Assembly (NCBI RefSeq): GCF_009914755.1 | Contig: NC_060929.1 | Direction: 5' to 3' (one strand) | Length of the DNA: 64,000 nt | DNA from: the human T2T-CHM13v2.0 reference genome, Homo sapiens | Notes under the pieces: model-generated | The model's input: the letters and a program-made list of their open reading frames with translations, nothing else | Databases searched by the model: none | Told to the model about the DNA's origin: nothing | Part shown: positions 1 to 50,080 of the stretch, in pieces | How positions within the stretch are numbered: the stretch's first letter is position 1 | Layout: each line of letters begins with the position of its first letter | Made by a program: the position numbers and the translations under genes

Positions 1-392
<392 letters not shown>

Positions 393-839
393 AGGAAACA
401 CTTTCTAATTCCCCATCTCCAGATGGGTTGGTTCTATGCATTCACCCATTCATTCAACAGGCATTGTTTGGACTCCTATGACCCATCAACATTACTGTGC
501 TAGACCCAGATAGACAGTGGTGAAAACAAAGCCCACATTCCATCCAAGAAAGTAACTCTCCTTCGAGTTTGCTCCAGCTCATTTTAAAACATGATCCTGA
601 ATTCTTCTCTCCATACCTGAAGGAGAAGCAAAACTAACTCAACCCAGTTGACAATGTGTCTGCCATGCCCATCTCTAGCCTCTTTTTGAACCAACACTTT
701 GGTTCTTCCTTGGAACCCTGACTCCCATGCATATCCCATATGTATTTGGAACTAGGATGTACACTACAAAGTATACCAGTAGAATCTGAACTATCCAGCA
801 TTTCTCAGGCATATTTATCACATTAAACAATCAAACTTT

Positions 840-1975
840 TAAGACTTCATGATCAAGAACCCAAAATCAAATGCAACAAAAACGAAGATAAATAAATGGA
901 CTTAATTAAACTAAAAAGCTTCTGCACAGCAAAAGAAATAATCAGCAGAGTTAACAGACAACCTACAGAGTGGGAGAAAATATTCACAATCTATACATCC
1001 AACAAATGACTAATATTCAGACTCTGTAAGAACTCAAACAAATCAGCAAGAAAACAAAACGATCCCATCAAAAACTGAGCTAAGGACATGAATAGACAAT
1101 TCTTAAAAGAACACATACAAAGAGCCAGCAAACATATAGAAAAATGGTCAGCATCACTAATTATCAGGGAAATGCAAATCAAAACCACAATGCAATACCA
1201 CATCACTCCTACAAGAATGGCCATAATAAAAAAATTAAAAAATAATAGATCTTGGCAGGGATGCAGTGAAAAGGGAACACTTTCACACTGTTGGTGGGGA
1301 TGTAAACTAGTACAAACACTATGGAAAACAGTGTGGAGATTCCTCAAAGAACTAAAAGTAGATCTACTGTTTGATCCAGCAATCCCACTACTAGGTATCT
1401 ACCCAGAGGAAAAAAAAGTCATTATATGAAAAAGATACTTGCACGTGCATGTTTATAGCAGCACAATTTGCAATTGCAAAACTATGGAACTAGCCCAAAT
1501 GCCCATCAATCAACAAGTGGATAAAGAAAATATTATATGATATATATATATATACACACACACATGCATACACACACCATGGAATACTACTCAGCCATTA
1601 AAAGGAACAAAATAAGGGCATTCACTGCAACCTGGATGGAACTGGAGACTATTATTCTAAGTGAAGTAACTCAGGAATAAAAAACCAAACATTGTATTTA
1701 TTCATTCATACCTTGGAGCTAAGCTATGAAGACGCAAAGGTATAAAAATCATACATTGGACTTTGGGGACTAGGGAGAAAGTGTGGGTGTTGGCGAGGGA
1801 TAAAAGACTACACATTGGGCATAGTGTACACTGCTAGGGTGATGGGTGCACCAAAATCTCAGAAATCACCGCCAAAGAACTTATTCATGTAACCAAATAT
1901 CACCTGTTCCCCAAAAGCCTATTGAAATAAAAAATAAAAAATTAATAAAACAAGTAAATAAATAAAAATAAATTC
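840..1975 (+). mobile_element. 5'-truncated LINE-1 3' end (L1PB-like)
   Basis: ORF 1088-1429 matches the L1 ORF2 C-terminus (REMQIKTT...[10 protein letters not shown]); L1PB-type 3'UTR; A-rich tail at about 1925-1975. Confidence 0.9.
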
Positions 1976-2109
1976 TAAAGGCCATTTCTTTGAATTCTGG
2001 AGAGCAGCTCTGCATGGAGGTAGACATCCACAGTGAGTCTGAAGGCAACAGGGTTTGGTGTGAGTGATATGTCTCAGTTGCTCCCTAGGTTGCTGCTTGC
2101 ATTGCTGAG

Positions 2110-2760
2110 TAGGTAGTATTGTCTAAGATAGGGACACTGGGAGAAGACTTGCTTTAATTAGGGGTGTTGGAGAGTGGAATTCATAAGTTCAGGTTTATCC
2201 TGATTAAACTTGAAATGTCTCTAGGAATTCAAAAGAGGGTGTCAAGCAAGCAGGCATGTATATGAGCAGAAGTATGTAGCCTGGAGATAACAAATGTGTG
2301 CTTCATCTGCAAATGGGGATAACTGAAGTTATGAGCTTGGGTGGTGTCTGAGAAGAAAGTACTGAAGAACAGAGGGTCTAGAGCCCGACATGGAGAAATC
2401 CCAACATTTAATGTCAGAGCAGTACAGAATAAGCCTGCCAAGGAGACAGAGAAGAAGGATCCTAAGAAGCAGGCGAAAAGCCAGGAGAGTATTAGCGCCC
2501 AGAAGCCAAAGGAAGAGAATGTATCAAGGAATGTGTGGTTAAATTCAAAAGCTGCTGAAAGGTCGGATAAGATAAGGAATAAAAAACATTCATTGGATCT
2601 AGAAAGATGTAGGTCACTGGTGACCACAGCAGAAGATGAGAAAAAAATGATGGCGCTAGAATTCATATCGGAGTGGACTGGAGAGTAAGTGAGAGGTGAG
2701 GAAATGAAGCCAGTGAAACTAGACAACTCTTTCTACTACTTTGGCTATGAAAGGGCATGA
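2110..2760 (-). mobile_element. LINE-2 fragment
   Basis: Antisense L2 text (ctgctgaaaggtcggataagataagg...cattggatctag...gtcactggtgacc); minus ORF contains RT remnant LILSDLSAAF. Confidence 0.75.
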
Positions 2761-5103
2761 GAGCAATAGGGAAGAAATGAATTGAGATGAGGAAGAGAAT
2801 ATTTTTGATTTTTGCTTGCTTTCTTTCTATTTTTGCAATGTGAGAGACTAGATTGTGTCTAAAAATATTATTCCAATATTTTGAAAGGAGATTACTGGGT
2901 GTACTTTCAGTACAGTGCTAGGGTGCACTTTTTACAACAATTTACAACTCTGTAACAGCCAACATGGACATTTTTATTACTAGAAACATAAATAAATTTA
3001 ATCCAGAGTAAATAGACTAACAGTGTGAACCAACGGACCTGCTGGACATTAACCAGTGTTGTGCCTAACCCAGAAATTATATCCTAACATTTCTTTGTTG
3101 AATTGACTATATATGTCACGTTTCCAGTGCTTTTTGGGCTGGTTTTACTGTTTTACCTGCCCCCTCCATTATTTAATGAATTAAATAAAATCATTGTCAT
3201 GTGCTTGTTTTGCATTTGCCTGAGAATCATGATTTTTACCATTGTAAAAACTATACTTTCATACTTGCCAAACCAATTTTAAGAAGGAAGTGGAGAGATC
3301 AGATCAAGCACCAGCTTCATGAAAATGAAAGAAACATATTCAGAAAAATGCAGGCTGCAGAACAATATAAAGAAGAAGGAAGTAGGCAACAGTAGAGCTG
3401 AGAAAATCCTAGGAAGGACACGAACTTTCAAAACATAAAGCCATAACTATTTAGGGTTTTAAGTTTGAGGCCTACAGAATTTGCACTATGAGTTCATAAA
3501 CAATTTCTGGTCAATACTTATTTTAAGTGAATAAACTAGAAAAGATAGAGACTTTTACTCAGAGAGTGAAAGCTGAGTATTGTAAGGGGCTTTTGGATGC
3601 ATTTGTGAATGGGAATCCAAATGCAATGGATTGGTTTAACTGGTAATATCTTTACATTTCCAAATTCAGATGTTTACTTCTGGGCAGAGTTCAACAAGCA
3701 TCATCAGAGCATCTCACTAGTTTTGGTGCCTTACCACCTCTTCACGGCTGCTCACCCGGCACTAATGTAGATGATGTTCCACACAGCCCAGGAAAGAAGT
3801 GGTCATTATGGAAATAAGCACATGTGGTTAAAGACAGCAGCACACTCTGCCCCGAGCTCCCAAAATAAACTTGCTTACATAATATACAAAAACCTCCCAA
3901 TCACTCCCTTGAGTTCCCTTGGCAGAACAGCCCATTTCCACCAAGAGGAACTATTCCATTATCCACGATAAGGACTCTACTCACTAACATTTTTGTCACT
4001 CTTACAATAAGGCTTTTTGAACTTTTATCAGAAAGGTCTTTGCTGGCCCCTTTTGCTGCACAGAAATGGTAGTTAAGGGCATCAAACTGGCTCAGCAAAA
4101 ATAAAACATTAATCAACAGTAACCTTCTGTTTTATCTGTTTTCCTACCCAAGGCCTGATTATCTCGTGAACAGTCCATTCTAAGAAGTCATTGTGACACT
4201 GCTTATTTGAGCAATATGTTTATTCAGAGTTGCTCACCTCTTACGGTGATCTTCACAGTGTAAATTTGTTTGAAGCAGGGATCTGACTGTTCCCAAATTT
4301 TGCCTAGTGCAGTGCTTTTTCAAACAGAAAACAAAATTCATGTATTTTGATCACAGGGATAATACTGATAATGATGACGAGAAGGCACAAAGGCCTGTGG
4401 GGAATGTTCTGAGGCAGCACAGAGCAGCAGAATGTTCATAACTATGGCTAGTTCCATGGCACAGTTACAGAAGCAGCATCAGAAACGATCGATTGGTTTT
4501 GGCACCGCTCACCTGGAAGACAGGCTCTAGCTGACTAAATTTCTATGCATTACAAATGACTGGTTAGCAAAGAAATGTGGTTACAATGTCTGACTCATTA
4601 AAAGGAGAGAGAAAGAGAACACTTTCTCACTGGCTTTTTTTTCTATGTAGAATTCATATGTCCTTACTATACTTTATCACTTGCTCTCCTTATTTGTGAT
4701 AAATATAAGAAGGTCAAATTGTTACCTGTCTTGCTACATAGTATTAAGAGGGGAAAAAGCCCTGGTGGACACCTTTTGCTGCAGCCAACAACATGCCCAT
4801 TACCCCATCCTACAGAGCAGTTAGAGGGAGGAAGAAATGCTTCAGTGCAGTTGACTGTTCCTCCAAGGATGTGCAAGACCATAGGCAGGAAATAGGATCC
4901 AAAACATTTTTATTTGCTGCAGAAGAAATGGCTCATGATCAGTCCATCATGTTTTGCCAGGCAAAGCTCCAATCACCTCCTACAACTGGGGCAAAGCAAG
5001 GAGGGGAGCAAGCACAGAGAAGGAAAGTGTAAGGAGATGGCCTGAGGGCTCATTTCCACTCCTGTCCCAGAGCCCCCTTGGTAAAAAACAGAACAATGGC
5101 CAC

Positions 5104-42316: not shown

Positions 42317-43195
42317 GAAGAGTAACTTCAAAAGCCAATAAAGGGGTCTACAATAAATGTTATAGCTAACATCACATTTATTCATAAATAACTAAAGATT
42401 GTTTTCTCTAAGATTGGGAATAAGATAGGAATAAAGTCTTCACTATTTCTACTCACAATTGCACTGAAGATTCTGAAGTCCATAAAACAAGAAAAACAAA
42501 CTGCATTAGTAAGAAGAAGTAAAACTTTTTACTCATAGGCAATATGCTTGTACAGGTAAAAAATCTTAAGGATTATACAAAAGAAAACAAAGTTTGCTAG
42601 AACTAAGAAGTGAGTCTAGTATTTATATGGGTTATAAGGCCAATATACAAAAATAAAATGTATTTTATAAACGAGGAACAAGTGACAATAAAATAAGTAA
42701 TTTCATTTTAAAAACCTAAATACACAGGAAAAAATGAAAAAGCATAGGAACTGACATAGTGTGGTAACTAAAAATATTACTGAGAGAATTTAAAGACTTA
42801 ATTAAATAGAGGAATAAAGTATATTCATGCACTGGAAGACTCAAGACTGTTTAGATGGTAATTCATGTCTAACTCATCTATATTTCAAAAAGTCCCCAAT
42901 CAAAATTTCAGCAAACTTTTTGTTTTTCTAGAAACTGGCTAATTGCAAGCTCATGCTGGAAAGTTGAAAGATCTAGAATAGTCAAAATAATATTGAAAAA
43001 AAAAGAAACAAGTTGGATGACTTTTTCTATCTGATTAAGTCAGGCAGGTCTTTATATTAAGTTAGGTCTTTAAGATTTAATGTAAAGCTACAGAAATTAA
43101 GACAGTGTGGTAATGGTGAAAGTAGACGGTAAATGATAAAGTAGAAATAAATCATTGCAACAGTAGGCAGAGTCCCAAAATGGACCCACCCATGT

Positions 43196-43320
43196 ATGTT
43201 AAGGTAGCCATCCTTTAAGACGGCCTCTAATGATCCCCACCCCCTGTATTCACAACTGTCTGTAGTCCCTTCTCACACCACATAAAGATTGGTTCATGTG
43301 ATTAATGGAATATGGCATAC
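43196..43320 (+). mobile_element. MLT1-type LTR 5' fragment, truncated
   Basis: taagacggcctctaatgatccccacc...tattcac...aatggaatatggca. Confidence 0.55.
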
Positions 43321-43961
43321 TTTGTCTGCCATGTCAACTTCTGTTTAAACCATTTAGTGATTTTTTAAAGTTCGTGTACATTTTAGCTTAGAATATCACT
43401 TGTCACTTGTTTTCCTTCCATAGCTTCTGTTTACTATTTACTGTTTCCCTTTAATTCTTTGAACATATCCTAATAGCTGCTTTGAAGTTTTTGTCTGCTA
43501 AATTCATTACCTGGACTCACTCAGAGTCAGTTTCTACTGATTTCTATTTTTCTCCCTGGAGAATGGACCACCCCGTCATGTTTCTTCATATATCTGGTAA
43601 TTTTTTGTATTGAAAATTGGACTTGGTGGATAATAAATGTAAAATTATACAATCTATTTTGTTATTGTGAGGTTTGACTTTTTTTTATTTTAGTAAGTAA
43701 TAAACTTTCCCTAAACTGCAAAATCTGTCTCCCCTGTAATATGTAGACACTAATGATTCTGCTTAATACTTGGGGGGTGGTGTGTGGGGGCATTTGAGTT
43801 CAATAAAGATCTTCCCAGCAACTGTATTGCTCGGCAGTCAGCCAATTATTTGGGCAGAGGCTATGTTCAGACACATCAAGCCTGTGAGGCCCTACCTTCT
43901 GCTGCCTGAACTGTGTGTGGGTTGTGAATTACAACTATCTAAATTGTGTGTGGGTTGAGGA
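43320..43961 (-). mobile_element. Old L1M 5' region fragment
   Basis: taatagctgctttgaagtttttgtctgctaaattc...tcagagtcagtttctactgat; similar to 29280-29780. Confidence 0.55.
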
Positions 43962-44216
43962 ATGCCGCAAATAGAAAAGTTTTCTGCAAATGTACCCCAT
44001 TCCCCTGTGCGAGAATTGCTTGAAATGGAACCAGAAACTACCAAATTTAGCCCGGCTGTGAGAACTTACAAAGGGAAGGTCAGAGTCACCATAGAAGTAG
44101 CAGGACAGGAGAAATTTAAAGGTGTTGGTCGAAGTAACAGGATTGCCAAATCTGCAGCAGCAAGAAGAGCCCTCCGAAGCCTCAAAGCTAATCAACCTCA
44201 GGTTCCCAACAGCTGA
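43962..44216 (+). CDS. Open 84-aa frame in the retrocopy: isolated Dicer dsRBD (coding status doubtful)
   Basis: ATG at the junction, no stop or frameshift, native stop codon; 9 aa differences from the recalled human DICER1 sequence. Confidence 0.25.
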
Positions 44217-47200
44217 AACCCCTTTTTAAAATTCAAAAAAAAAAAAAAAAAGGCGGGGGGGAAATTACTTAAATTGGAAGGATGACTTAAAGTTGATATT
44301 GAGCTAAATGCATTGAAGGCAGAATTTAAAGTTTGTTTGATAACAAGATAGCTAACAGAATAAAACATTTAGCATATGTATGCAATTTTGGAACTAATTG
44401 TAGTTTCAGTTTTTGCACAAACACAATCTTGTCTTCTTTCCTCACTTCTGCTTTGTTTAAATCACAAGAGTGCTTTAATGATGACATTTAGCAGGTGTTC
44501 AAAATAATTGACAGAGTTTTTTTGTTGTTGTTTTTTGTTGTTGTTGTTTTTGAGTTTAATTTATGTCAGCTTTGCTTAGTGTTAGAAGGCCATGGAGCTT
44601 AAACCTCCAGCAGTCCCTAGGATGACGTAGATTATTCTCCATCTCTCCATGTGTGAAGTAGTGCCAGGCCTGCATTAGTTGATAAGAATAGAATGATTGA
44701 ATAGAATGATAAGGTTTTCGAGAAGAGAAGTGCACCAATGTTGTCTTTTCTTTCCACGTTATACTGTGTAAGGTGATGTTCATGGTCGCTGTTGCACCCG
44801 ACAGTAAGGGATAGATACTTAATGAACATTGGCTGACATGTTGGTTAATCACATTTTAGTTTTCTGATGCCACATAATCTTGCATAAAAAAGATTCTTGC
44901 CTTAACAGTAAAACCTTCATGGATATTCTTTAATCTCTGATCTTTTTGGAAAAATGTTTTACATTCCCTTCATTTTATTATGCATTAGACGTTGAGACAT
45001 CGTGATACTTACAACTCACCAGTATAGTTGTAACTTATTACAGGATCATACTAAAATTTCTGTCATGTATACTGAAGACATTTTAAAAACCAGAATATGT
45101 AGTCTATGGATATTTTTTATCATCAAAAAAATGATCTTTGGCTAAATACCCCATTTTACTACAGACCTCCTGCTACGTAATTCCACTGATGGAAATGTTT
45201 TGTGACAAATAATTTTGCCTTCTAGGCTGTTGCTCTAACAAAATAAACCTTAGATATATCACACCTAAAATATGCTGCAGATTTTATAATTGGTTGGTTA
45301 CTTATTTAAAGAAGCAAAACAGAGCACCTTTACCCTTAGCTTCCTCACATAAATTTCTTACTGTACTTTTCATAATGTTGCATTCCTATTTCACCTACCA
45401 AGCCATGCTGTTAATGCCATGAAAGTTTAACATTTGTGATAAACTGCTGTAATTTTGATACATCTGTGATTTAGCTCATTAATTTAGATAAACTAGCTTA
45501 TTGTTTCTGTGTTTGGGAAAGGAAAAAAAGACTTTTTTAGGCATTTGCCTAAGTTTCTTTAATTAGACTTGTAGGCACTCTTCACTTAAATACCTTAGTT
45601 CTTGTTTTCTTTTGCATGCATTTTTCCCCTAGTTGGTGCTATGTTTATGTATTATGCTTGAAATTTTAATTTTTTTTGTACTGTAACTATAATTCCTCTT
45701 AGTTTACCTTTTTAAAAGTTGTGGGTCAGTCTTGCACTCCCATCAACATACCAGTAGAGGTTTGCTGCAATTTGCCCCGTTAATTATGCTTGAAGTTTAA
45801 GAAAGCTGGGCAGAGGTGTTTCATATTTCCCAGCACATGATTCTGAAGTTGAAGCTTCATGGAATGCTGCATGTATGTGTATGTGACATTTGAATACTGT
45901 CCTTCCTGCTTTATCTGCATCATCCACCCACAGAGAAATGCCTCTGTGTGAGTGCACCCACAGAAAACTGTCAGCTCTGCTTTCTAAGGAACCCTCAGTG
46001 AGGGGTATATTATGCTTCTCCAGTGTTTTTTGTTGTCTCCAATCTTAAAATTAAATTGAGATCTAAATTATTAAATGAGTTTTTGAGCAAATTAGTTTAG
46101 ATGACTTGTTTTAAAAATATTTAATTCTGATTTGGAACCTTAGATATCTACTTGATTTTTTAAAAAACCTTAATGTAACATATGGCCAGTTAAAACAAAA
46201 TAATTCTTGAATTATGGAACTATAAAGGTGTACAGTGAACAAGTAAGGTTGGATGTGAATTTTACTGTGAGGGTTATTTGTGATCAAGTTTAATCACAAA
46301 TCTCTTAATATTTATAAACTACCTGATGCCAGGAGCTTAGGGCTTTGCATCGTGTCTAATGCATCCATCCCAGTGTTACGGGATTCTCTTGATTCCTGGC
46401 ACCAAAATCAGATTATTTTCACAGTTATGATTCCCAGTGGGAGAAAAATGCCTCAATATATTTGTAACCTTAAGAAGAGTATTTTTTTATTAGTACTAAG
46501 ATGTTCAGACTTATAGACATGATTAGGTCATGCATTCTCAGGGGTTCAAATTTCCTTCTACCATTCAAAATGTTTTATCAACAGCAAACTTTAGCTCTTT
46601 CACTTTTTGTTGGAGAAAAAATAGTGGATTTTAATTTGACTCACAGTTTGAAGCATTCTATGATCCCCTGGTTACTAAGTTAAAAAATTTTTAAAGTACA
46701 GGTTAGACATATGAAATGGTTATGAACGCTTTTGTGCTGCTGATTCTTAATGCTGTAAAGTTTTCCTCTGTTTAGCTTGTTGAAATGTTTTGCATCTGTC
46801 AATTAAGAAAAAAAAATCACTCTATGTTGCCCCACTTTACAACCCTTATGCCATTCTTCTGTTCCTGTGATTGCAATGTGAGACTGAATGTAATATGCAA
46901 AACCTACTAGTGGGGTGTGGTTGTGCTCTGAGCACATGTGTAAAGGACTGGGGAGGTGTATCTTGAAAAAGCAACTGCAGAAATACCTTGTGATGATTGT
47001 GTGCAAGTTAGTTGACATGAATCTTCATTTGTAAATTTTTTAAAATATACTTTCCGCAGTCCTAACTACGTTGCGTTTTATAATAGCTTTTTCCCTTCTG
47101 TTCTGTTCATGTAGCACAGATGAGCATTGCACTTTGTACCATGCTTTACCTCATTTCAAGAAAATATGCTTAACAGAGAGAATAAAAATGTGGTTTGGCC

Positions 47201-48503
47201 TTGCTGCTGTTTTGACTTATGGAATTTGAAAAAGATAATTATAATGCCTGCAATGTGTCGTATACTCACACAACTTAAATAGGTCATTTTTGTCTGTGGC
47301 ATTTTCACTGTTTGTGATATGAAAAAGATTTGTTAACTGAACTCTTAATTACGTTTTTAAGATGTTTGTTACATTTCTTTTCCTTTTTCTTTTATATTAC
47401 GTGAAGTGATGAAATTTAGAACGACCTCTAACACTCCTGTAATTGTCTCTTAAAATACTGATATTTTTATTTGTTAATAATACTTTGCTCTCAGAAAGAT
47501 TCTAATACCCTGCCTTGACAACATGAAACTTGAGGCTGCTTTGGTTCATGAATCCAGGTGTTCACCTGGCAGTCAGCTCCTTCAGTCGCTCCCTGGAGGC
47601 AGGTGGGGACTGCAGAGGATCACTGGAATCCAGAATGAACGCAGTTCATGCACAAAGCCCCATTGATTTAAAATATTGGATCTTGCTCTGTCAGGGTGTC
47701 TAATTCCTTTACAAAAAATTTAAGCCACCAAACTGAGACCTTGATACCATTTTTTAACTGCATCTGAAATTATGTTGAGTCCTTAACCCGTTTGCATTAT
47801 CTGCAAAAGAGAAACTCATGTCATGTTTATTACCTATATGGTTATTTTAATTACATTTGAATAATTATATTTTTCCAAGCACTGATTACTTTTCAGAAAT
47901 TTAATTATTTCCAGATAAATTTCTTTATTTTGTATTGTACATGAAAAGTTTTAAAACTATGTTTAATACCAAGACTATTAAAATGATTTTAAAAGTTGTT
48001 GGAGATGCCAACAGCAATATCTAGGAAATTTGCAAGGAGACCACTGTATTTTCCACTAGCAGTGAAAATGACTTTTCACAACTAACTTGTAAATATATTT
48101 TAATCATTACTTGTTTTTTTTCTAGTCCATTTTTTTTTGGATATCAACCACAGACAATTTAAATTCTATAGATGCACTAAGAATTCACTGCAGCAGCAGG
48201 TTATCTAGCAAAAATGCAAAGGTGAACAGGAAGTAAATTTCTGGCTTTTCTGCTATAAATAGTAAAGGAAAATTACTAAAATCAAGTAAAACTAATGCAT
48301 ATAACTTGATTGACAATAAAATATTTACCATCACATGCTGCAGCCGTTTTTTAAGGAACATGATGTCATTCATTCATACAGTAATCATGCTGCAGAAATT
48401 TGCAATCTGCACTTTATGGATCACAATTACCTTGAGTTTTTTTTTGTAATAATTGTAGCCAAGTAAATCTCCAATAAAGTTATCGTCTGTTTAAAAAAAA
48501 AAA
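43962..48503 (+). pseudogene. DICER1: DICER1 processed pseudogene (5'-truncated retrocopy: dsRBD exons, 3'UTR and poly(A))
   Basis: ORF 43962-44216 translates [27 protein letters not shown]...[30 protein letters not shown], the Dicer C-terminus; no intron at the recalled last junction (44050/44051); about 4.3 kb DICER1-like 3'UTR; AATAAA at 48473-48478; A11 at 48493-48503. Confidence 0.95.
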
Positions 48504-49320
48504 GTAGGCAAAAGACATGAACAGACACTTCTCAAAAAAAGACATGAAAGCTCAGTGTCACTGATCATTAGAGAAATGCAAATCAAAACCACAATGAGAT
48601 ACCATCTCACACCAGTCAAAATAGTTATTATTAAAAAGTCAAAAAATAACAGATGTGGGCAAGGTTGCAGAGAAAAAGGAATGATTATACACTGCTGGTG
48701 GGAGGGTAAATTAGTTCAACCACTGTGAAAAGCAATATGGTGATCCCTCAAAGAGCTAAGAGCAGAAGTACCATAACACCCAGCAATCCCATTACTGCGT
48801 ATATACGCAGAGGAATATTGATCATTCTACCGTAAAGACACACGCATGTGAATGTTCATTGCAGCACTGTTCACAATAGCAAAGACATGGAACCAACCTA
48901 AATCCCCAACAATGATGACTGGATAAAGAAAATGTGGTACATATACACCATGGAACATTATGTAGCAATAAAAAAGAATGAGGTTATGTCTTTTGCAGGA
49001 ACATGGGTAGAACTAGAGGCTATCATCCTTAACAAACTAATGTAGGAACAGAAAACCAAATACCATATGTTCTTACATATAAGTGTAAGCTAAATGATGA
49101 GAACTTAGGAACACAAAGAAGGAAACAACCAACACTAGGGTCTACTTGAAGGGGAAGGATGAGAGGAGGGAGAGGAACAGAAAAGATAACTGTTGGGTAC
49201 CGGACTTAATACCTGGGTAACGTAATAATATGTACTACAAACCCCCATGACATGAGTTTATTTATGTAACAAACCTTCACAGGTACCCCCAAACGTAAAA
49301 TAAAAATTAAAAAAATAAAG
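48504..49320 (+). mobile_element. LINE-1 3' fragment (older L1PA, about PA12-15-like) abutting the DICER1 poly(A)
   Basis: gtaggcaaaagacatgaacagacacttctc ... cttaatacctggg ... aaaccttcacaggtacccccaaac followed by A-rich tail. Confidence 0.9.
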
Positions 49321-49349
49321 AGAAAACAAACTAAGTCATTTCCAAATCT

Positions 49350-50080
<731 letters not shown>

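What the first reader, a model, noticed from the sequence alone, without database searches (positions are those of the whole stretch)
43962..48503. Retrocopy of DICER1 mRNA: C-terminal dsRBD plus the long 3'UTR
Seen: an 84-codon ORF ending [22 protein letters not shown], then about 4.3 kb free of recognisable transposons, AATAAA (48473-48478) and A11. Known: that peptide is the C-terminal dsRBD of Dicer (RNase III, miRNA biogenesis), and the downstream sequence follows the DICER1 3'UTR as I recall it, through to the distal poly(A) site. The intron I recall at TTTAG|CCCGG (44050/44051) is absent. Inference: L1-mediated retrotransposition of spliced DICER1 mRNA in a primate ancestor. About 95% of it is UTR, so protein-based pseudogene annotation could miss it. 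I do not recall a named DICER1 pseudogene but cannot check. It could also mis-map reads or primers aimed at the DICER1 3' end.
Basis: partly seen in the sequence, partly recalled or inferred. Interest (0 to 1): 0.85.

Follow-up and report, generated by a model that had tools for sequence, protein, structure and literature searches.

The report
Old DICER1 processed pseudogene, already catalogued
This stretch of human chromosome 5 is a dead, 5'-truncated reverse-transcribed copy of the end of the DICER1 messenger RNA, an ordinary processed pseudogene that a published primate retrocopy list already contains.

Summary
Window 43962-48503 (+) is colinear with the 3' end of DICER1 on contig 14 of the same genome. 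It is 94.2% identical without gaps (4209 of 4467 aligned bases, K2P 0.060). The 368-bp last intron is absent at 44050/44051, and a second, upstream intron is absent at 43974/43975. The copy ends at the parent's distal poly(A) site: AATAAA at 48473-48478, then A11, where the parent gene has no A run. The 84-codon dsRBD frame evolves neutrally, with dN/dS 1.3.

No target-site duplication was found. The A tail joins an older L1 fragment exactly where two of three related L1 copies read TT|AAAAAG, an L1-endonuclease-type site. I infer L1-driven insertion into a pre-existing L1 with loss of the upstream target DNA.

It is not new. Supplementary file 2 of Navarro and Galante 2015 (PMC4558860) lists a DICER1 retrocopy on chr5, + strand, 4521 bp, and one on chimpanzee chr5. 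It is an ordinary processed pseudogene of low interest. Practical point: 22% of parental 25-mers are identical in the copy, and no 100-mer is.

The parts
43906..43957 (+). 5' flank. A 19-nt direct repeat (43906-43924 and 43939-43957, 17 of 19 identical, spacing 33) abuts the 5' junction. It is unexplained and is not a target-site duplication of the retrocopy.
   Evidence: no counterpart 3' of the insert
43962..43974 (+). Remnant of the antepenultimate DICER1 coding exon and the 5' truncation point (boundary uncertain, 43961-43970). It holds the ATG that opens the 84-codon frame.
   Evidence: the window bases before 43975 match the parent exon end (8 of 10, counted by eye) and not the intron end (3 of 10)
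43975..44050 (+). Complete 76-nt penultimate DICER1 exon, with both flanking introns absent
   Evidence: BLAST block 43973-44050, 97.4% identical; parent exon 76 nt
44051..44216 (+). Coding part of the last DICER1 exon (dsRBD C-terminus) with stop TGA at 44214-44216
   Evidence: 9 of 81 codons changed, dN/dS 1.32
44217..48492 (+). Full-length DICER1 3'UTR copy, 4275 nt against 4268 nt in the parent, 94.2% identical without gaps
48473..48478 (+). Distal poly(A) signal AATAAA, identical to the parent
48493..48503 (+). A11 tail. The parent genome has no A run here (it continues CACTTTGTGTCC). The last 5 A (48499-48503) also align with L1 copies.
48499..49319 (+). 3' flank and target: the 3'-terminal ~820 nt of an older L1, cut off exactly at the retrocopy's tail. 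It is not part of the DICER1 copy.

Best explanation
Window ~43962-48503 is a non-functional, 5'-truncated processed pseudogene (retrocopy) of DICER1.

How it arose: a mature, spliced and polyadenylated DICER1 mRNA that used the distal poly(A) site was reverse-transcribed from its tail. About 4.53 kb was copied: the 3'UTR, the last exon's coding part, the 76-nt penultimate exon and about 13 nt of the exon before that. The copy was fixed on chromosome 5.

Most likely mechanism (inferred): L1 endonuclease and reverse transcriptase primed on a TT|AAAAAG site inside a pre-existing L1. The upstream target DNA was lost at integration or later, which would explain why there is no target-site duplication.

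Age: divergence from the parent points to roughly 30-50 million years, in an anthropoid or early catarrhine ancestor. This dating is an inference that uses recalled primate neutral rates.

The copy has no promoter or start of its own gene. Its short dsRBD frame drifts neutrally and it does nothing known.
For: Shown:
- Across the whole genome, one colinear match lies at contig 14:89316447-89320882(-), plus the 78-nt block at 89321251-89321328(-).
- That locus encodes the Dicer C-terminus. Its 81 translated codons equal the PDB Dicer chain printed.
- 4209 of 4467 aligned bases are identical. There are 169 transitions, 89 transversions and 28 gap events. K2P is 0.060, or 0.0515 without CpG columns.
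- CpG has decayed in the copy: 47 in the parent against 29.
- Two introns are absent.
- The copy ends 13-14 nt after AATAAA and is followed by A11, which is not templated in the parent gene.
- Coding part: 13 substitutions, 9 of 81 codons changed, dN/dS 1.32.
- With the chr13 copy as outgroup over 671 ungapped columns, 19 changes are private to chr5 and 9 to the parent.
- Three related L1 copies run on upstream of the junction. Two of the three read TT|AAAAAG where the window's A tail meets L1.
- The L1 fragment has 7.0% private changes (57 of 814 columns). It is 84.6-85.2% identical to those copies, so it is more diverged than the retrocopy is from its parent.
- A printed catalogue lists the same chr5 + strand DICER1 retrocopy, 4521 bp, and a chimpanzee one.
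Against: - No target-site duplication. The best local alignment of the 5' flank with the sequence after the A tail, and with the sequence after the L1's own tail, scored 15 each. That equals the median of 300 random controls; the 95th percentile was 21.
- The 5' flank is not L1. The nearest upstream L1 piece (~42594-43200) is much more diverged: 28.6% amino-acid identity to L018 and no blastn hit. A target deletion or later rearrangement therefore has to be assumed and is not shown.
- The L1-older-than-retrocopy argument rests on three hand-picked L1 copies. Subfamily differences inflate such numbers.
- No other primate genome could be searched, so the empty site and the age are untested.
Confidence: 0.95

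Rival explanations
1. Chimeric retrocopy made in one event. L1 reverse transcriptase first copied the last ~820 nt of an L1 RNA. It then switched template at the L1's AAAAAG to the poly(A) tail of a DICER1 mRNA. On this reading 43962-49319 is a single insertion.
For: DICER1 tail and L1 fragment lie on the same strand and abut directly. The junction falls on an A5 microhomology. This kind of L1 chimera is known to me from recall only; no paper was read.
Against: - No target-site duplication flanks 43961 and ~49320-49335.
- The L1 part looks older: 7.0% private changes against at most 5.8% total raw difference between retrocopy and parent, about a third of which lies on the parent branch.
Confidence: 0.1
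2. The retrocopy came first. A 5'-truncated L1 later inserted into its poly(A) tail, which is an A-rich endonuclease target, and separated the retrocopy from its 3' target-site duplication.
For: Poly(A) tails are good L1 targets (established knowledge, recalled). The L1's 5' end shares A5 with the tail.
Against: - The L1 fragment is more diverged than the retrocopy.
- No match to the retrocopy's 5' flank lies after the L1's own A-rich tail at 49306-49335.
Confidence: 0.1
3. DNA-level (segmental) duplication of the 3' end of the DICER1 gene.
For: None beyond the sequence similarity.
Against: Both introns are missing precisely at the exon junctions. The similarity stops at the mRNA cleavage site and an untemplated A run follows.
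Confidence: 0.005
4. A functional retrocopy: either a transcribed decoy for microRNAs that target the DICER1 3'UTR, or a gene for an 84-residue dsRBD peptide.
For: - The frame is open with an ATG.
- 4 of the parent's 5 ATGCTGC 7-mers are kept at the same columns. The link of that motif to miR-103/107 is recalled, not tested.
Against: - dN/dS is 1.32.
- UTR divergence (K2P 0.061) is the same as in the coding part (0.055), and CpG has decayed.
- RefSeq annotates no gene, and the RefSeq enhancers lie elsewhere in the window (hub note).
- No Rfam family matches.
- No expression data were available.
Confidence: 0.03

Closest known systems
DICER1 retrocopy entry in the primate retrocopy catalogue of Navarro and Galante 2015 (Genome Biol Evol 7:2265, PMC4558860; RCPedia data set)
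   Same: Same parent gene, chromosome 5, + strand. The listed length is 4521 bp, equal to the span 43971-48491 that I aligned. The genome search found only one chr5 DICER1-like locus. A chimpanzee chr5 entry of 4522 bp is listed too.
   Different: The listed coordinates (67151571-67156091) belong to another assembly and are 1.53 Mb lower than the T2T place. I could not lift them over. I saw only two passages of supplementary file 2 (2 of 5 occurrences of DICER1). File 1 was not searched and I did not read the main text.
Ordinary human processed pseudogenes (L1-mobilised mRNA copies)
   Same: Intronless, 5'-truncated, poly(A) tail at the mRNA cleavage site, on a different chromosome from the parent, neutral drift.
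   Different: It has no target-site duplication. It is almost all 3'UTR (94%), so protein-based pipelines see only 84 codons.
Second DICER1 3'UTR fragment on contig 13 (G000:C13:44983524-44984201, locus L003)
   Same: It also ends at the distal DICER1 poly(A) site and carries an A-rich tail. It is an independent 5'-truncated retrocopy of the same mRNA end.
   Different: It is only ~690 nt long and much older: 79.5% identical to the parent and 77% to the chr5 copy, with 102 of 671 columns private. Its tail has degenerated to (CAAA)n.
PTENP1-type pseudogene microRNA decoys (recalled; no paper read)
   Same: A processed pseudogene that keeps much of the parent's 3'UTR, including 4 of 5 ATGCTGC 7-mers.
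   Different: There is no evidence of transcription or of constraint here. The resemblance is structural only.

Membership tests
Processed pseudogene / mRNA retrocopy | Colinear similarity to the mature mRNA of a parent gene located elsewhere in the genome | tested here: met
   one colinear match to contig 14 (DICER1 3' end), 94.2% identical over 4467 aligned bases. The window lies on contig 5.
Processed pseudogene / mRNA retrocopy | Introns of the parent precisely absent | tested here: met
   the 368-bp last intron is absent at 44050/44051. The preceding intron is absent at 43974/43975, but this junction is supported by only ~13 nt of upstream exon (8 of 10 bases against 3 of 10 for the intron end, counted by eye).
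Processed pseudogene / mRNA retrocopy | Untemplated poly(A) tail at the mRNA's cleavage site | tested here: met
   AATAAA at 48473-48478, similarity ends at 48491/48492, then A11. The parent genome continues with non-A sequence.
Processed pseudogene / mRNA retrocopy | No coding constraint; incomplete gene | tested here: met
   dN/dS 1.32 and 9 of 81 codons changed. Only 84 codons are kept; the matching human Dicer chain 5zak_A is 1922 residues long.
Classical endonuclease-dependent L1 target-primed reverse transcription | Target-site duplication of about 7-20 bp flanking the insert | tested here: not met
   best local score 15 at both candidate 3' positions, equal to the median of 300 random controls. 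By contrast, a nearby Alu (49696-50014) shows a clear ~15-nt duplication when read by eye.
Classical endonuclease-dependent L1 target-primed reverse transcription | Integration at a TT|AAAA-type endonuclease site | tested here: inconclusive
   the tail joins L1 sequence where 2 of 3 related L1 copies read TT|AAAAAG and the third reads TT|AAAGTG. The pre-insertion sequence of this locus itself is not available.
Classical endonuclease-dependent L1 target-primed reverse transcription | 5' truncation of the copied RNA | tested here: met
   the copy starts within the antepenultimate coding exon. No inverted DICER1 piece lies upstream (one search found no contig-14 match for 43190-43965).
Functional retrogene or expressed pseudogene | Transcription and/or purifying selection | not testable with these tools
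   No expression data and no other primate genomes were available. The one-lineage dN/dS of 1.32 argues against constraint on the frame.

The most novel reading that the evidence does not exclude
The copy is transcribed in some tissue. Because it keeps nearly the whole DICER1 3'UTR, including 4 of the 5 parental ATGCTGC 7-mers, it would act as a competing target that buffers microRNA repression of DICER1, in the manner of PTENP1. Nothing here excludes this, and nothing supports it beyond the retained sequence.
Probability: 0.03. Interest if true: 0.5.

Novelty: already known. Interest (0 to 1): 0.1.

Why it matters
It matters little. It is one of thousands of human processed pseudogenes and a published retrocopy list already contains it.

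Two modest points remain:
- Practical. RefSeq annotates nothing here, yet 30% of parental 20-mers and 22% of 25-mers from the DICER1 3' end are identical in this copy, with exact runs of up to 89 nt. Small-RNA, CLIP or 3'-end tags, primers, probes and guide RNAs aimed at the DICER1 3'UTR can therefore hit chromosome 5 as well. Reads of 100 nt or more cannot match exactly (0 of 4451 100-mers).
- Mechanistic. It is a tidy example of an mRNA copy whose tail sits on a TT|AAAAAG site inside an older L1 without any target-site duplication. The likely cause is a target-site deletion.

Tried and rejected
- **Target-site duplication.** I aligned the 5' flank 43860-43975 locally against 48492-48620 and against 49290-49480, with 300 random controls. 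Nothing rose above chance.
- **Twin priming or a 5' inversion, or a second source RNA upstream.** A genome search with 43190-43965 gave 40 scored matches out of 166 candidates. One was the window itself. The other 39 were copies of an old interspersed repeat, all within query positions 229-582 (about 43418-43771) at 68-88% identity. Nothing matched contig 14:89.3 Mb, and nothing at all matched 43772-43965.
- **One L1 interrupted by the retrocopy.** The upstream L1 ORF2-like piece (~42594-43200) gave only a 28.6% amino-acid match to L018 and no blastn hit to three copies of the downstream L1's family. It is therefore a different, older element.
- **Structured RNA.** An Rfam scan of 43000-49500 at gathering threshold gave 0 matches.
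- **A named pseudogene in print.** Two full-text searches used twelve phrasings, among them DICER1 pseudogene, DICER1P1, retrocopy of DICER1 and Dicer retrogene. They gave 8 and 0 papers. I opened only the single 'DICER1P1' hit, and it is the variant name DICER1_P1592L. I did not open the other listed papers, which hit only the prefix DICER1P; none has a pseudogene term in its title.
- **More copies in the genome.** One search gave 12 matches: the window itself, 2 parent blocks, 1 on contig 13 and 8 short matches of 30-48 nt. The PF20932 search gave 3 matches: the window and two parent exons.
Full report
**Observation**

It runs from ATG at 43962 through 84 codons to TGA at 44214-44216 and ends [22 protein letters not shown]. 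It matches Pfam Dicer_dsRBD (PF20932) at E=1.6e-36 over profile positions 11-89 of 89. It also matches the extreme C-terminus of the Dicer chains in the PDB, for example 5zak_A residues 1840-1922 at E=7e-40. Ten of 83 aligned residues are changed in the alignment printed for 7yyn_A. AATAAA is at 48473-48478 and 11 A follow at 48493-48503.

**Parent and colinearity**

The window's own genome could be searched. With 43962-48503 as query, one search returned 12 matches:
- the window itself;
- contig 14:89316447-89320882(-), covering query 88-4530 at 92% identity with gaps counted;
- contig 14:89321251-89321328(-), covering query 12-89 at 97%;
- contig 13:44983524-44984201(+), covering query 3839-4542 at 77%;
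- eight short matches of 30-48 nt.

The contig-14 locus is the Dicer gene. Its last coding exon translates to a peptide that matches 5zak_A residues 1869-1922. The 81 codons I aligned translate exactly to the Dicer sequence printed. A search of the genome with PF20932 found only the window (124 bits, 85-residue open frame) and the two contig-14 exons.

**Spliced origin**

In the parent, a 368-bp GT...AG intron separates ...AAATTTAG from CCCGGCTG.

The parent's penultimate exon is only 76 nt long and is complete in the window at 43975-44050. Upstream of it the window reads ...ATGCCGCAAATAG. This resembles the end of the antepenultimate exon (...ATGCGGCCACTAATAG) and not the intron's 3' end: 8 of 10 bases match the exon and 3 of 10 match the intron (my count by eye). 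A second intron is therefore missing too. That junction rests on about 13 nt only, and the 5' end of the copy can be placed no better than 43961-43970.

**3' end**

Similarity runs to GTCTGTT at 48491. The parent genome then continues CACTTTGTGTCC..., whereas the window has T followed by A11. The copy therefore ends at the cleavage site 13-14 nt after the distal AATAAA, and the A run is not templated by the gene.

**Divergence**

A global alignment from 43971 to 48491 against the spliced parent gave these figures:

| Measure | Value |
|---|---|
| Aligned columns | 4467 |
| Identical | 4209 (94.2%) |
| Transitions / transversions | 169 / 89 |
| Gap events / gap columns | 28 / 101 |
| K2P, all columns | 0.060 |
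| K2P without CpG columns | 0.0515 |
| CpG count, parent / copy | 47 / 29 |
| K2P, coding part | 0.055 |
| K2P, UTR | 0.061 |

The coding part and the UTR are equally diverged. In the coding part, 13 substitutions change 9 of 81 codons, and dN/dS is 1.32, so there is no constraint on the frame.

The largest indels are a 20-nt insertion and a 12-nt deletion.

**Age**

The contig-13 fragment can serve as an outgroup over 671 ungapped columns. There, 19 changes are private to the chr5 copy, 9 to the parent and 102 to chr13. About two thirds of the 6% divergence therefore lies on the retrocopy's branch, roughly 4%, with an upper bound of 6%.

I compared this with recalled, untested values for neutral divergence on the human lineage: about 3% since the split from Old World monkeys and about 5% since the split from New World monkeys. 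The comparison points to roughly 30-50 million years. This step is an inference. The one printed datum I saw is a chimpanzee chr5 entry in the catalogue.

**Insertion site**

No target-site duplication exists. I aligned the 5' flank against the sequence after the A11 and against the sequence after the L1's own tail. Both gave a best score of 15, the median of 300 random controls.

The 3' flank (48499-49319) is the 3'-terminal ~820 nt of an L1. It produced 13,786 first-look candidates in the genome, and the 40 that were scored are 81-85% identical over their long matches. Three related copies were fetched.
- They align with the window from 48499 or 48504 onward.
- They continue upstream as L1. 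Two of the three read TT|AAAAAG exactly where the window's A tail meets L1.
- The window's L1 fragment has 57 private changes in 814 columns (7.0%) and is 84.6-85.2% identical to those copies. It is more diverged than the retrocopy is from its parent.

My reading is that the L1 was there first. The DICER1 cDNA was primed at an endonuclease-type site inside it, and the L1's upstream part was lost with the target, at integration or later. Only the junction sequence and the divergence figures are shown; the rest is inferred.

Two rivals fit the same junction but fit the age figures and the missing duplication less well:
- a one-step L1-DICER1 chimera made by template switching at the A5;
- a later L1 insertion into the retrocopy's tail.

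The 5' flank is not L1. The stretch 43772-43960 is unique in the genome, and about 43418-43771 is an old interspersed repeat, with 39 other scored copies at 68-88% identity. A 19-nt direct repeat (43906-43924 and 43939-43957, 17 of 19 identical) abuts the junction and remains unexplained.

**Function**

None is indicated. There is no Rfam match in 43000-49500, RefSeq annotates no gene (hub note), and the copy drifts neutrally. Four of the parent's five ATGCTGC 7-mers are retained (the microRNA assignment is recalled). That alone keeps a decoy role conceivable, but it would need transcription, which I could not test.

**What is known**

Two full-text searches for a named DICER1 pseudogene or retrocopy found nothing true. 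The one 'DICER1P1' hit is a variant name.

Supplementary file 2 of Navarro and Galante 2015 (PMC4558860) does list 'DICER1 NM_001195573 chr5 67151571 67156091 +'. I saw only the search listing, the start of the abstract and two passages of that file. The entry is 4521 bp long, the same length as 43971-48491. The file also lists 'DICER1 XM_001154369 chr5 47406255 47410776 -' among what look like chimpanzee rows. One search found only one chr5 DICER1-like locus in this genome, so this entry is the same element, although I could not lift the coordinates over.

**Verdict**

It is an ordinary, old and already catalogued processed pseudogene. The practical residue is multi-mapping of short tags: the share of parental k-mers found identical in the copy is 30.4% for 20-mers, 22.4% for 25-mers, 11.4% for 36-mers, 4.4% for 50-mers and 0 of 4451 for 100-mers.

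Noticed in passing
L003 1501-2168 (G000:C13:44983524-44984201, + strand); outside the window: A second, older and independent DICER1 retrocopy. It holds only the last ~690 nt of the 3'UTR up to the same poly(A) site, is 79.5% identical to the parent, and is followed by a degenerate (CAAA)n tail. I did not see it among the two catalogue rows shown to me.
   Followed up: partly
window 43906-43957: A 19-nt direct repeat (17 of 19 identical, spacing 33) lies immediately 5' of the retrocopy junction. It looks like a short tandem duplication of flank DNA. It has no counterpart on the 3' side and no explanation.
   Followed up: partly
window 48499-49319: The L1 3' fragment extends well beyond the stretch masked in NCBI's file (48483-48730). 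The whole 817 nt matches other L1 copies at 81-85% identity.
   Followed up: yes
window ~42594-43200 and ~43418-43771: A much more diverged L1 ORF2-like piece lies on the + strand, with frameshifts and stops. It is followed by an old interspersed repeat with at least 39 other genomic copies at 68-88% identity. Neither stretch is in the hub's list of masked stretches. Family names were not determined.
   Followed up: partly
window 49696-50014: An Alu in reverse orientation (it starts with a T run) is flanked by a clear ~15-nt target-site duplication, AGAATTT(T)CTTCATCT, read by eye. It is a useful contrast to the retrocopy, which has none.
   Followed up: no
window 44236-44260: The A-rich, interrupted stretch just after the stop codon in the parent 3'UTR has become a pure A17 run followed by a G-rich patch in the copy, with a 7-nt deletion. 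This is probably replication slippage.
   Followed up: no
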